Part shown: piece after piece, positions 50,181-52,867 of the stretch
How the letters are laid out: every line of letters begins with the position of its first letter
Position numbering within the stretch: the stretch's first letter is position 1
Assembly: GCA_009914755.4 (NCBI GenBank)
Contig: CP068257.2
Location: 23,104,001 to 23,168,000, forward strand
Source: the human T2T-CHM13v2.0 reference genome, Homo sapiens
Direction of reading: 5' to 3'
Length of the DNA: 64,000 nucleotides
Made by a program: the position numbers and the translations under genes
The notes under the pieces: model-generated
Databases searched by the model: none
What the model saw: only the letters and a program-made list of their open reading frames with translations
What the model was told of the DNA's origin: nothing

Positions 50181-50647
50181 TGGCCAACATGTCTGAGTCT
50201 GGTGAGATAAAACATCCACCCACACAACAAATTACATGAAGAGGATTTATTATTTACAGATAAGCAGCAAAGGACAATAGAACTTTTTGAAAATATTAGA
50301 TTTGTTTGACAGATGCTTAAAGCTCTGCTCGGCAAGAATTTGAACAATTCACTCATATTTGCTCCCCACAAACTTGTAACTAGAAGTTGGTACTGTCTGC
50401 CCATTTCCCTAAAACAGAAGCAAACACTTTCCTGTCACAATAAAATTACGTTTTTATCCAACTGTTTTTCTTTAGAAACAGCTTTACTTTTGCTCAACTT
50501 ATTTATTTCCATTTTAGTACATGGGAGCATAAGTTTATTCCATGTATTCTAAAAAAAAAATGTAGAGAAAAGGAAGAAGCTACATAAATTTTTCATGCGA
50601 ATTTCTCAAAGATTACATACATGTTTAAATGAAAATGTAGAAAATAG

Positions 50648-50930
50648 GCCGGAGGTGGTGGTTCACGGCTGAAATCCCAGCACTTTGGGAGGTGGAGGCA
50701 GGCAGATCACCTGAGGTCAGGAATTCAAAACCAGCCTAGCCAACATGGTGCAACTCTGCTTAATGCAAATACAAAAATTAGCCGGGTATGGTAGCACACA
50801 CCTGTAATCCCAGCTACTTGGGAGGCTGAGGCAGGAGAATCGCTTGAACAGGGAGGCAGAGGTTGCAGTGAGCCAAGATCGTGCCACAGCACTCCAGCCT
50901 GGGTGACAGAGTGAGACGTTGTCACAAAAG
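50648..50930 (+). mobile_element. Alu (plus) with perfect 17-bp TSD, whose tail has expanded into a compound tetranucleotide repeat
   Basis: Runs from 'gccggaggtggtggttcacggctgaaatcccagcactttgggaggtggaggcaggcagatcacc' to 'ctgggtgacagagtgagacgttgtcacaaaag'. TSD 'gaaaatgtagaaaatag' at 50631-50647 and 51106-51122. Confidence 0.95.
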
Positions 50931-51105
50931 AGAAAGAGAAAGAAAGAAGGAAAGAAGAAAGAAAGAAAGAAAGAAAAGAAAGAAAGAAGGAAGGAAGGAA
51001 GGAAGGAAGGAAGGAAGGAAGGAAGGAAGGAAGGAAGGAAAGAAAGAAAGAAAGAAAGAAAGAAAGAAAGAAAGAAAGAAAGAAAGAAAGAAAGAAAGAA
51101 AGAAA
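50931..51105. repeat. Compound tetranucleotide microsatellite (AGAA/GAAA)n-(GGAA)13-(GAAA)17, about 175 bp, derived from the Alu tail
   Basis: Direct reading: '...agaaagaaagaaagaaaagaaagaaagaaggaaggaagg...(ggaa x13)...gaaagaaag...(gaaa x17)'. It lies between the Alu body and the downstream TSD copy. Confidence 0.95.
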
Positions 51106-51428
51106 GAAAATGTAGAAAATAGATAAATTACATAAATGTTAGTAAATGGAAATTTTGGTTAGGCACAGATAAACTTCAACAATAAGGCCAGGGGCATATT
51201 GCCATTTAAAAAAAATAAAGTTGAGATATGATTATGTTTAGTGGTGAAGTTATTACTGAATCCAACAGCACTCAGTGATTAAACTCAACTTGTTTATGAA
51301 AACAAAGGAATTTTAATCTTTCTTTGATTTATTGAGAAATACTCATTGGCAAACATCCTTTCTGAATCACCCCAGTGTACCCACTCACACACACACAAAA
51401 TTACTATTATATCATCTAATTGAGCAAT

Positions 51429-51726
51429 TTTTTTTTTTTTTTTTGAGACGGAGTTTTGCTCTTGTCACCTAGGCTGGAGTGCAGTGGTGCAATCTCGGCT
51501 CACTGCGACCTCCGCCTCCCAGGTTCAAGTGATTCTCCTGCTTCAGCCTCCAGAGTAGCGGGGATTACAGGCATGTGCCATCACGCCTGGCTAAATTTGC
51601 ATTTTTAGTAGAGACAGGGTTTCTCCACGTTGGTCAGGCTAGTCTCGAACTCCCGACCTCAGGTGATCCGCCCACGTCGGCCTCCCAAAGTGCCAGGATT
51701 ACAGGCGCGAGCCGCCATGCCGGGCC
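51429..51726 (-). mobile_element. Full-length Alu (minus) with 11-bp TSD
   Basis: Runs from 'tttttttttttttttgagacggagttttgctcttgtcacctaggctggagtgcagtgg' to 'gattacaggcgcgagccgccatgccgggcc'. TSD 'aattgagcaat' at 51418-51428 and 51728-51738. Confidence 0.95.
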
Positions 51727-52867
51727 AAATTGAGCAATCTTAAAGAGAACTCACCAGGGAGTTTCACAGCAGCTTTTAGTCAAGTATTGGCAGAGAGCTT
51801 TGCTGAGGCCTGTTTCAGGATGGCCATTTTTGCATGAGGTTTTAGTTGTTTTTTTTTTAGACCTCTCTAATCTTAGATTGTTTTGGATGTTAATTCAGTA
51901 CAAATTTTTTCTCATCAGAGATAGTCACTTTTTTGACAACATAGAATTTGACACAGTAATATTATAATATGAAATATTTTCCTCTTCTTGTTCTATTCCA
52001 AAAGTATCATCTTGTCAAAGACTGCATAAAGCCTCTCTATTATGTTAAAAATACTTTTCCCATGAAGTTTAAAGAAATTTTCTCCCTTTTGAAAATGTGT
52101 TGGGATTTTTGGTCCTCAGGGATTTGAGGCCTTTCTATCTGCCTTTGTTAAATGACTTTTTACTCTGAAAATGACTTGTAATGTAAAAGTTAAAAATTGG
52201 GAAAGAGTTACCACATAGTTTTATGCACCCAGGAAAATTTTAAAGACAATAAGAAAAGCTTTTGCTGTAGCATAGTGTCTATTACATGTACAGGGCATAA
52301 GAGCTTGAGGTGTTTGTTCAAAATTTGGACATACTGTCAGAATGAAGAGGATTATTTGTTAACATATAATAGTTTGACATCTGGTATAAAAATAATAGTG
52401 TCTTATTTCTTTAGATGAATGTACTAAATTGTAAATTAAGAGTATAAGGAGAAAAAAATAATAACAATTATATGTTCATGCAAATTAGCATAGAAATTAA
52501 TGAAAAGGATAGAAGATACAGACTCATTTCAAAGCATGCTCTCACTGGTAAAAACGTTGATGGTGCCTATGTAAAACAAAATTTCCTCTGTATTGTCAAG
52601 TTTACTAAGAAATACAAAACAGTGATGAGAAATTTGTAAAAGCATAAAATACAAAATCATGAAAAGAATAATGATGGGAGATAAATAAATATTCTCTCCC
52701 TTCTCAAGAGAATGGATGGTTTACAAAGAAAAGTTTAATAGCTTGCTCTTGCAAAACTTTTTAATTCTAATGCTGGGATGATCTTATGTTCAGCTAAGAT
52801 AATTGAATGAATATTGGACTGAGCATAAAGAAGTTTTGGAAAAATTCCAAAGGAAAGGTATTAGGAG

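What the first reader, a model, noticed from the sequence alone, without database searches (positions are those of the whole stretch)
50631..51738. Inverted Alu pair separated by about 500 bp that contains a 175-bp compound (GAAA/GGAA)n microsatellite
Alu(+) 50648-50930 and Alu(-) 51429-51726 each have their own perfect TSD (17 bp and 11 bp), so they are independent insertions that happen to form a closely spaced inverted pair. Such pairs form long dsRNA stems when transcribed and are the main A-to-I editing substrates. Inverted Alu pairs less than about 650 bp apart are also recombinogenic. The spacer carries a long purine-rich GAAA/GGAA tract grown from the first Alu's poly(A) tail. Long GAA-type tracts can adopt triplex/H-DNA structures and are length-unstable.
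Basis: partly seen in the sequence, partly recalled or inferred. Interest (0 to 1): 0.5.

Follow-up and report, generated by a model that had tools for sequence, protein, structure and literature searches.

The report
Ordinary inverted Alu pair with microsatellite
Two old Alu elements inserted separately in opposite orientation about 500 bp apart in human DNA, and the tail of one has grown into a long GAAA/GGAA repeat; all of this is real, but it is one of several hundred thousand such arrangements and nothing about it is unusual.

Summary
An AluS(+) body lies at 50648-50925 and an AluS(-) body at 51445-51726, tail-to-tail. Each has its own perfect target-site duplication (17 bp and 11 bp) that occurs nowhere else in the window. 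A 185-nt pure purine tract containing (GGAA)13 and (GAAA)17 lies inside the first Alu's duplication. It is therefore that Alu's degenerated poly(A) tail.

- **dsRNA:** either strand, if transcribed, is predicted to fold into a stem of about 240 bp. Transcription and editing could not be tested.
- **Recombination:** the arms are only 76-78% identical and about 500 bp apart. Yeast data place such pairs in the essentially stable range, and human census data show no marked depletion at this spacing.
- **H-DNA and length instability:** both are well supported in the literature for this motif class. No second allele could be retrieved.

[quoted passage not shown] This is a textbook example of known biology with low interest.

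The parts
50631..50647 (+). 5' copy of the 17-bp target-site duplication of Alu(+), GAAAATGTAGAAAATAG
   Evidence: Exact repeat of 51106-51122. These are the only two matches in the window with up to one mismatch allowed, and 0 were expected.
50648..50925 (+). Alu(+) body, AluS class (best match AluSx). It is 13.7% diverged overall and 7.8% at non-CpG sites.
   Evidence: Two 7SL-like monomers on the + strand in the Rfam E-value scan.
50926..51105 (+). Degenerated poly(A) tail of Alu(+), now a compound microsatellite. It contains (GGAA)13 at 50989-51040 and (GAAA)17 at 51042-51109; the last GAAA unit is shared with the TSD. The pure purine run is 50926-51110, 185 nt.
   Evidence: TRF score 232, period 4, 43 copies. 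Block structure and purine run. The tract lies between the Alu body and the 3' TSD. Perfect mirror symmetry spans 71 nt at 51039-51109.
51106..51122 (+). 3' copy of the 17-bp TSD of Alu(+)
51123..51417 (.). 295 bp of non-Alu spacer. This is the original DNA between the two target sites. It contains a short (CA)n run near 51388.
   Evidence: Read directly. No Alu or L1 ORF2 similarity. Two exact k-mers from it were absent from the metagenome and prokaryote genome collections.
51418..51428 (+). Tail-side copy of the 11-bp TSD of Alu(-), AATTGAGCAAT
51429..51444 (-). Poly(A) tail of Alu(-), seen as T16-17 on the + strand
   Evidence: TRF reports 51428-51444, T x17, 100%.
51445..51726 (-). Alu(-) body, AluS class (best match AluSq/Sp-like). 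It is 11.3% diverged overall and 7.6% at non-CpG sites.
   Evidence: Two 7SL-like monomers on the - strand.
51728..51738 (+). Head-side copy of the 11-bp TSD of Alu(-)
   Evidence: One unmatched A at 51727 separates it from the Alu 5' end.

Best explanation
Two AluS retrotransposons were inserted at separate times by L1-mediated target-primed reverse transcription. Their target sites lay about 300 bp apart, in AT-rich human DNA with no recognisable exon or CpG island, just beyond the 5' truncation of an old antisense L1. They landed in opposite orientation with their tails facing each other.

The poly(A) tail of the + element acquired A-to-G changes and grew by replication slippage into a compound array of GAAA-type units, (GGAA)13 and (GAAA)17, 185 nt in all. 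The tail of the - element stayed a plain A16-17 run.

Expected consequences, all generic to this class:
- If the region lies in a transcript of either strand, the arms pair into an imperfect dsRNA stem of about 240 bp closed by a loop of about 510 nt. This is a typical promiscuous ADAR substrate.
- The purine tract is a homopurine/homopyrimidine mirror repeat that can form H-DNA. It is almost certainly length-polymorphic.
- As double-stranded DNA, the inverted pair itself should be stable.

Shown here: the anatomy, the TSDs, the orientations, the tail origin of the repeat, the predicted RNA and single-stranded DNA folds, and the human origin of the window. Inferred: the insertion mechanism, growth by slippage, editing, H-DNA formation and polymorphism.
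For: - **Anatomy and TSDs:**
- **Alu identity and orientation:**
- **Arm identity:** 216 of 283 aligned columns (76%), or 78% ignoring gaps. The longest perfect run is 14 bp, and 86% of positions can pair as RNA when G:U is allowed.
- **RNA folds:** MFE is -482 kcal/mol for the + strand and -467 for the - strand. There are 240 and 236 inter-arm pairs and loops of 509 and 511 nt. Cofold z = -30 against dinucleotide shuffles.
- **Single-stranded DNA fold:** the fold-back MFE is -225 kcal/mol with the same arm pairing.
- **Context:** 18 Alus in 64 kb (7.5%), GC about 34%, CpG observed/expected at most 0.4 in every 2-kb bin, and L1 ORF2 remnants at 47667-50172 on the - strand. The ten ORFs tested (eight of them the longest non-repeat ones) have no Pfam match above threshold.
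- **Human origin:** window 49666-50692 is 1027/1027 identical to the start of a contig from a human lung sample.
- **Literature:** A-tail origin of A-rich microsatellites (PMC3812793). [quoted passage not shown] Heterozygosity rises with the consecutive repeat number at AAAG and GGAA loci (PMC13082088). (GAAA)n and (GGAA)n are the most frequent S1-END-seq H-DNA repeats (PMC11667243).
Against: - Nothing contradicts the anatomy.
- Transcription, editing, H-DNA formation and polymorphism are all untested at this locus.
- The target site of Alu(-) (CAAT|CT on the nicked strand) is a poor match to the L1 endonuclease consensus TTTT|A. That is unusual but within known variation (my reading, not tested).
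- H-DNA peaks in vivo favour long pure repeats, many over 200 bp. Here the longest pure blocks are 68 and 52 nt within a compound tract.
Confidence: 0.9

Rival explanations
1. The pair is a functional RNA element. As an IRAlu hairpin in an intron or UTR, it would recruit ADAR to nearby sites, retain an mRNA in the nucleus, promote circular RNA formation, or act as an MDA5-relevant immunogenic dsRNA.
For: The predicted stem is long and stable on either strand. IRAlus can induce editing at sites hundreds of nucleotides away (PMC4053975). Shorter loops favour immunogenic IRAlus (PMC12695637).
Against: No exon, CpG island or coding ORF was recognised anywhere in the 64-kb window, so there is no evidence that the locus lies in a mature mRNA. 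Immunogenic IRAlus are almost excluded from introns. The features are shared with more than 200,000 other pairs, so the prior for a specific role is very low.
Confidence: 0.04
2. The locus is a DNA fragile site or recombination hotspot because of the closely spaced inverted Alus. The purine tract could aggravate it by stalling forks and exposing the arms as single strands.
For: Single-stranded DNA of this region folds arm to arm. In yeast with extensive single-stranded DNA, inverted Alus of at least 75% identity interact even at a 30-kb spacing (PMC10164571). (GAA)n and (GAAA)n correlate with cancer translocation breakpoints, and replication stress raises H-DNA signal (PMC11667243). The inverted:direct pair ratio is slightly depressed out to 350 kb (PMC3215922).
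Against: Identity of 76-78% is at the limit where instability disappears. A spacer of about 500 bp is far beyond the steep fall-off between 12 and 100 bp. For spacers of 51-500 bp all four orientation classes are about equally frequent in the human genome. Both elements are 11-14% diverged, so the pair has persisted intact for tens of millions of years (the age is my inference from divergence).
Confidence: 0.05
3. The purine microsatellite existed before the Alu, which simply inserted next to it. It would then not be tail-derived.
For: The TSD itself begins with GAAAA, the repeat unit, so the target was A/G-rich.
Against: The whole array lies inside the TSD pair, between the Alu 3' end and the 3' TSD copy. 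The 5' TSD copy is preceded by non-repeat sequence, TTTAAAT. A pre-existing repeat would lie outside the duplication.
Confidence: 0.01

Closest known systems
IRAlu hairpins (inverted-repeat Alu pairs), the bulk substrate of ADAR A-to-I editing in human transcripts
   Same: Two full-length Alus in opposite orientation, 519 bp apart. The predicted imperfect stem has about 240 bp, with bulges and G:U pairs.
   Different: Membership as an actual substrate needs transcription and observed A-to-G clusters, and neither could be tested. The window shows no exon or UTR.
Unstable inverted Alu repeats of the Lobachev/Stenger type (cruciform- or hairpin-driven fragility)
   Same: The repeat type and the inverted arrangement are the same, and the spacing is within the historical 650-bp window.
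   Different: The unstable class has spacers of up to about 20-100 bp and identity of about 85% or more. This pair has about 500 bp and 76-78%, so both defining parameters are not met.
Alu poly(A)-tail-derived A-rich microsatellites, for example the RFC1 (AAAAG/AAGGG)n repeat in an AluSx3 tail
   Same: A purine-only repeat that evolved from an AluS A-tail and is bounded by the TSD.
   Different: This is a tetranucleotide GAAA/GGAA compound of modest size (about 45 units). No expansion and no disease link are known here.
Long (GAAA)n/(GGAA)n H-DNA motifs (S1-END-seq peaks; the UGT2B7 intron-1 (GAAA)n expansion in renal carcinoma) and EWS-FLI1-responsive GGAA microsatellites
   Same: A homopurine mirror repeat. 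(GAAA)17 and (GGAA)13 are both long, and 13 exceeds the threshold of about 11 consecutive GGAA repeats reported for EWS-FLI1-dependent accessibility.
   Different: The tract is compound rather than pure, and the pure blocks are 52-68 nt whereas many peaks exceed 200 bp. The window is not UGT2B7, because it lacks the roughly 240-aa exon-1 ORF that I recall UGT2B genes having (memory, not a tool result). Binding and structure are untested.

Membership tests
Alu SINE | Dimeric 7SL-derived body of about 280 bp | tested here: met
   Each element gives two Metazoa_SRP sub-threshold hits, with E from 1e-6 to 2e-11.
Alu SINE | 3' A-rich tail and flanking target-site duplication | tested here: met
   The tails are a T16-17 run and a purine array. 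The TSDs are 17 bp and 11 bp, perfect, and unique in the window.
IRAlu dsRNA / ADAR substrate | Opposite-orientation Alus within about 1-2 kb that can form a long duplex | tested here: met
   The gap is 519 bp. There are 236-240 inter-arm pairs, and the cofold z-score is -30 against shuffles.
IRAlu dsRNA / ADAR substrate | Both arms lie in one transcript, and clustered A-to-G mismatches are seen in RNA | not testable with these tools
   No expression or editing data are available. No exon was recognised in the window.
Fragile inverted Alu repeats (yeast-defined) | Spacer of no more than a few tens of bp, with steep loss of activity by 100 bp | tested here: not met
   The spacer is 498-519 bp. 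Thresholds come from PMC10164571.
Fragile inverted Alu repeats (yeast-defined) | Arm identity well above 75%, typically 86% or more | tested here: not met
   Identity is 76% including gaps and 78% without them. The longest perfect run is 14 bp.
Alu-tail-derived microsatellite | The array lies between the Alu 3' end and the 3' TSD copy, and its motif is one or two A-to-G steps from poly(A) | tested here: met
   The array is at 50926-51105 and the TSD at 51106-51122. The motifs are GAAA and GGAA.
Alu-tail-derived microsatellite | Length polymorphism between individuals | not testable with these tools
   The only other copy of the locus retrieved (L001) is an assembly chimera that leaves the locus 45 nt into the Alu. 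Eight other exact-protein look-ups and four DNA scans found nothing.
H-DNA motif | Homopurine/homopyrimidine tract with mirror symmetry | tested here: met
   There is a 185-nt pure purine run. Perfect mirror arms of 35 nt are centred at 51074, giving a span of 51039-51109.
H-DNA motif | Nuclease or chemical evidence of a triplex in cells | not testable with these tools
   This needs S1/P1-END-seq or permanganate footprinting data.
EWS-FLI1 GGAA-microsatellite enhancer | More than about 11 consecutive GGAA repeats | tested here: met
   (GGAA)13 lies at 50989-51040. The threshold comes from PMC13082088.
EWS-FLI1 GGAA-microsatellite enhancer | EWS-FLI1 occupancy and accessibility in Ewing sarcoma cells | not testable with these tools
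   No ChIP-seq or ATAC-seq data are available here.

The most novel reading that the evidence does not exclude
The arrangement acts as a compound fragile element. An H-DNA-prone purine tract sits in the loop between two inverted Alus whose identity is just above the roughly 75% limit for annealing in single-stranded DNA. Fork stalling or breakage at the tract would expose the arms, which would fold back and seed inversions, deletions or dicentric formation under replication stress or in tumours. The locus would then rearrange more often than either feature predicts alone.
Probability: 0.03. Interest if true: 0.4.

Novelty: already known. Interest (0 to 1): 0.08.

Why it matters
It matters little as a discovery. 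Every component is textbook human repeat biology: AluS insertions with TSDs, an inverted Alu pair, an A-tail-derived GAAA/GGAA microsatellite, and H-DNA potential. Any repeat-masked genome browser would annotate all of them.

The practical value is local.
- The tetranucleotide array is very probably a polymorphic marker.
- If the region is transcribed, the pair will carry promiscuous A-to-I editing.
- In Ewing sarcoma cells the (GGAA)13 block is long enough to be a candidate EWS-FLI1 binding site.

The check also corrects an over-general rule. Spacing under 650 bp does not by itself make an inverted Alu pair recombinogenic. Spacing of tens of bp and high arm identity are what count.

Tried and rejected
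1. **Finding other alleles or orthologues by DNA.** Exact 30-mer and 24-mer patterns from the unique spacer gave no hit in metagenome contigs or genome contigs.

2. **Finding other alleles by exact ORF look-up.** Eight ORFs around and inside the pair were not on record.
- One ORF (50313-50552) was found on a human lung metagenome contig, L001.
- L001 is identical to the window for 1027 nt and then switches, inside the Alu, to an unrelated GTF2I-region sequence. It is therefore an assembly chimera and says nothing about the microsatellite.
- Its protein cluster has a single member, so I ran no further search on it.

3. **Identifying a host gene.**
- Stop-to-stop ORFs of 58 aa or more look non-coding.
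- Ten non-repeat ORFs (eight of them the longest) gave no Pfam match above threshold. The only hit was Sdh_cyt at E = 0.033, which I dismissed.
- The gene context therefore remains unknown.

4. **Testing whether the repeat is a named STR marker.** A full-text search for six 12-13-mers from its flanks gave only chance single-term hits. One was an LCE3C primer that shares 12 nt only.

5. **UGT2B7 intron 1, the known (GAAA)n expansion locus.** I considered and rejected this. The window has no ORF longer than 178 aa, whereas I recall UGT2B exon 1 as about 240 aa (the exon size is from memory).

6. **Whether the pair lies inside the neighbouring L1.** It does not.

7. **Rfam at gathering thresholds.** It finds nothing in the window. 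The sub-threshold mir-1268 and mir-3135 hits overlap the Alu bodies, and I read them as Alu sequence similarity rather than as miRNA genes.

8. **Papers not held.** Lobachev 2000 and the S1-END-seq primary paper are not in the library. Their results are cited only through papers that quote them.
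Full report
**What is there**

Reading 50400-52000 directly shows, from left to right:
- a 17-bp direct repeat, GAAAATGTAGAAAATAG (50631-50647);
- a sense Alu body (50648-50925);
- an uninterrupted purine tract (50926-51110);
- the second copy of the 17-mer (51106-51122);
- 295 bp of non-Alu DNA (51123-51417);
- an 11-bp repeat, AATTGAGCAAT (51418-51428);
- a T16-17 run (to 51444);
- an antisense Alu body (51445-51726), then one A;
- the second copy of the 11-mer (51728-51738).

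The coordinates of both duplications were computed. Both sequences occur only at these two places in the 64-kb window. The 17-mer has 0 matches in 100 dinucleotide shuffles even with one mismatch allowed. The 11-mer has 0.12 expected.

**Alu identity and orientation**

It calls these two AluSx-like (+, 86.5%) and AluSq/Sp-like (-, 88.7%).

Independently of my memory, an Rfam E-value scan finds two 7SL-like monomers per element. They lie on + for the first and on - for the second, with E from 1e-6 to 2e-11, all below the SRP gathering score as expected for Alus. At gathering thresholds the window has no Rfam family.

Divergence from the best consensus is 13.7% and 11.3% overall. At non-CpG sites it is 7.8% and 7.6%. 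These values are typical of old AluS copies. Their age of tens of millions of years is my inference from established Alu chronology.

**The microsatellite**

TRF reports 50937-51109, period 4, 43 copies, score 232. This is the strongest tandem repeat in the window.

The tract breaks down into degenerate GA/GAAA units, (GAAA)5 a (GAAA)2, (GGAA)13 at 50989-51040 and (GAAA)17 at 51042-51109. It is the only purine or pyrimidine run of 30 nt or more in the window.

The array lies inside the TSD pair, so it belongs to the inserted element. It is the Alu's poly(A) tail, altered by A-to-G changes and slippage. A pre-existing repeat would lie outside the duplication. This route is well documented. Alu and L1 tails seed a large share of A-rich microsatellites, including tetranucleotides (PMC3812793).

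**The inverted pair as nucleic acid**

The two bodies align at 216 of 283 columns (76%; 78% ignoring gaps). The longest perfect run is 14 bp. As RNA, 86% of positions can pair when G:U is allowed.

| Measure | Value |
|---|---|
| RNA fold of 50631-51738, + strand | MFE -482 kcal/mol, 240 inter-arm pairs, 509-nt loop |
| RNA fold, - strand | MFE -467 kcal/mol, 236 inter-arm pairs, 511-nt loop |
| Cofold of the two arms | -407.6 kcal/mol, against -206.6 +/- 6.6 with one arm shuffled (z = -30) |
| Single-stranded DNA fold | Same arm pairing, MFE -225 kcal/mol |

The potential for a long duplex is therefore real and far beyond chance. That is true of any two Alus in opposite orientation.

**Context**

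- The window is AT-rich (about 34% GC) with CpG observed/expected at most 0.4 in every 2-kb bin, so there is no CpG island.
- It is 7.5% Alu.
- It carries several L1 ORF2 remnants.
- Stop-to-stop ORFs look non-coding. Ten of the longer non-repeat ORFs gave no Pfam match above threshold.
- I could not identify a host gene, so whether the locus is transcribed is unknown.

The window is human. One ORF just upstream of the pair is on record on a contig from a human lung sample. That contig is identical to the window over its first 1027 nt. It then jumps inside the Alu to an unrelated GTF2I-region sequence, which is an assembly chimera. It therefore carries no information on the repeat allele.

**How ordinary is it?**

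[quoted passage not shown] They report that 78% of edited Alus have an inverted partner within 1 kb (PMC4053975).
- Within this window there are eight other adjacent inverted pairs. The nearest has a gap of 712 bp.
- A long-read population survey finds 11,251 tetranucleotide loci with alleles over 72 bp. It finds 3,892 loci with alleles of more than 18 consecutive units, 98% of them AAAG or GGAA. Heterozygosity rises with the number of consecutive units (PMC13082088).

1. *Independent insertions:* supported.
2. *Tail origin of the repeat:* supported.
3. *dsRNA and editing:* the structural precondition is met. Transcription and editing are untested. If the pair is intronic it would be a routine nuclear ADAR substrate and not one of the rare immunogenic dsRNAs, which are found in mature mRNAs (PMC12695637).
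4. *Recombinogenic because under 650 bp apart:* not supported for this pair.
   - The 650-bp figure comes from Stenger 2001, as cited.
   - In the whole-genome census, strong depletion of inverted pairs is confined to spacers of 24 bp or less. For 51-500 bp the four orientation classes have similar frequencies (PMC3215922). Only a slight genome-wide imbalance extends further.
   - In yeast, recombination falls about 300-fold when the spacer grows from 12 to 100 bp.
   - In the same system, gross rearrangements fall about 1000-fold at 75% identity (PMC10164571).
   - With about 500 bp and 76-78% identity this pair sits in the stable range. Its survival with 11-14% divergence agrees.
   - One caveat applies. 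In extensively single-stranded DNA, arms of 75% identity or more can still anneal at any spacing up to 30 kb.
5. *H-DNA and length instability:* supported for the class.
   - The tract is homopurine and has a perfect 71-nt mirror repeat.
[quoted passage not shown] However, many peaks exceed 200 bp and purity matters (PMC11667243).
   - For this locus it remains an inference.

**Verdict**

The feature is a routine instance of known human repeat biology. No feature defining a new kind of element was found. Interest is low.

Noticed in passing
L001 (ENA ERZ940582, SRR5110005, human lung metagenome contig k127_1779970), positions 1-3087; window 49666-50692: This public contig is 100% identical to the window for 1027 nt. 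Then, 45 nt into the Alu, it switches to a different Alu, followed by a GTF2I-like exon region (Pfam GTF2I on the called gene at L001 2319-2579). It is a short-read assembly chimera joined through Alu sequence. Its only use here is to show that the window is human.
   Followed up: yes
window 50989-51040: (GGAA)13 exceeds the threshold of about 11 consecutive repeats reported for EWS-FLI1-dependent chromatin opening in Ewing sarcoma cells (PMC13082088). The block is therefore a candidate neo-enhancer site in that tumour type only.
   Followed up: partly
window 50779-50830 (+), 51542-51593 (-), 51466-51525 (+): There are sub-threshold Rfam hits to mir-1268 and mir-3135 inside the Alu bodies (37.9, 29.5 and 47 bits against gathering scores of 80-83). 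They look like Alu sequence similarity in those miRNA families and not miRNA genes.
   Followed up: no
window 16140-16391 (-) and 17104-17385 (+): This is the next closest inverted Alu pair in the window, head-to-head with a 712-bp gap. In total 9 of the 17 adjacent Alu pairs in the window are inverted.
   Followed up: partly
window 20850-20899: A 50-nt T-rich run (83% T) lies next to the Alu(-) at 20917-21188. It looks like an unusually long retained A-tail and is probably a polymorphic mononucleotide repeat.
   Followed up: no
window 636-1982 (+), 14768-15297, 28355-28886 (-), 47667-50172 (-): These are L1 ORF2 remnants of different ages. The remnant next to the Alu pair is only 27-50% identical and is old.
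   Followed up: partly
window 45448-45492 and 3292-3337: (GT)22-23 dinucleotide microsatellites. The first has 95% matches and is likely polymorphic.
   Followed up: no
window 51630-51660 (- strand Alu left monomer): Alu(-) keeps an intact B-box-like GTTCGAGAC, whereas Alu(+) has ATTCAAAAC at the same place. I read this by eye against the Pol III box consensus from memory. Autonomous Pol III transcription was not tested.
   Followed up: no
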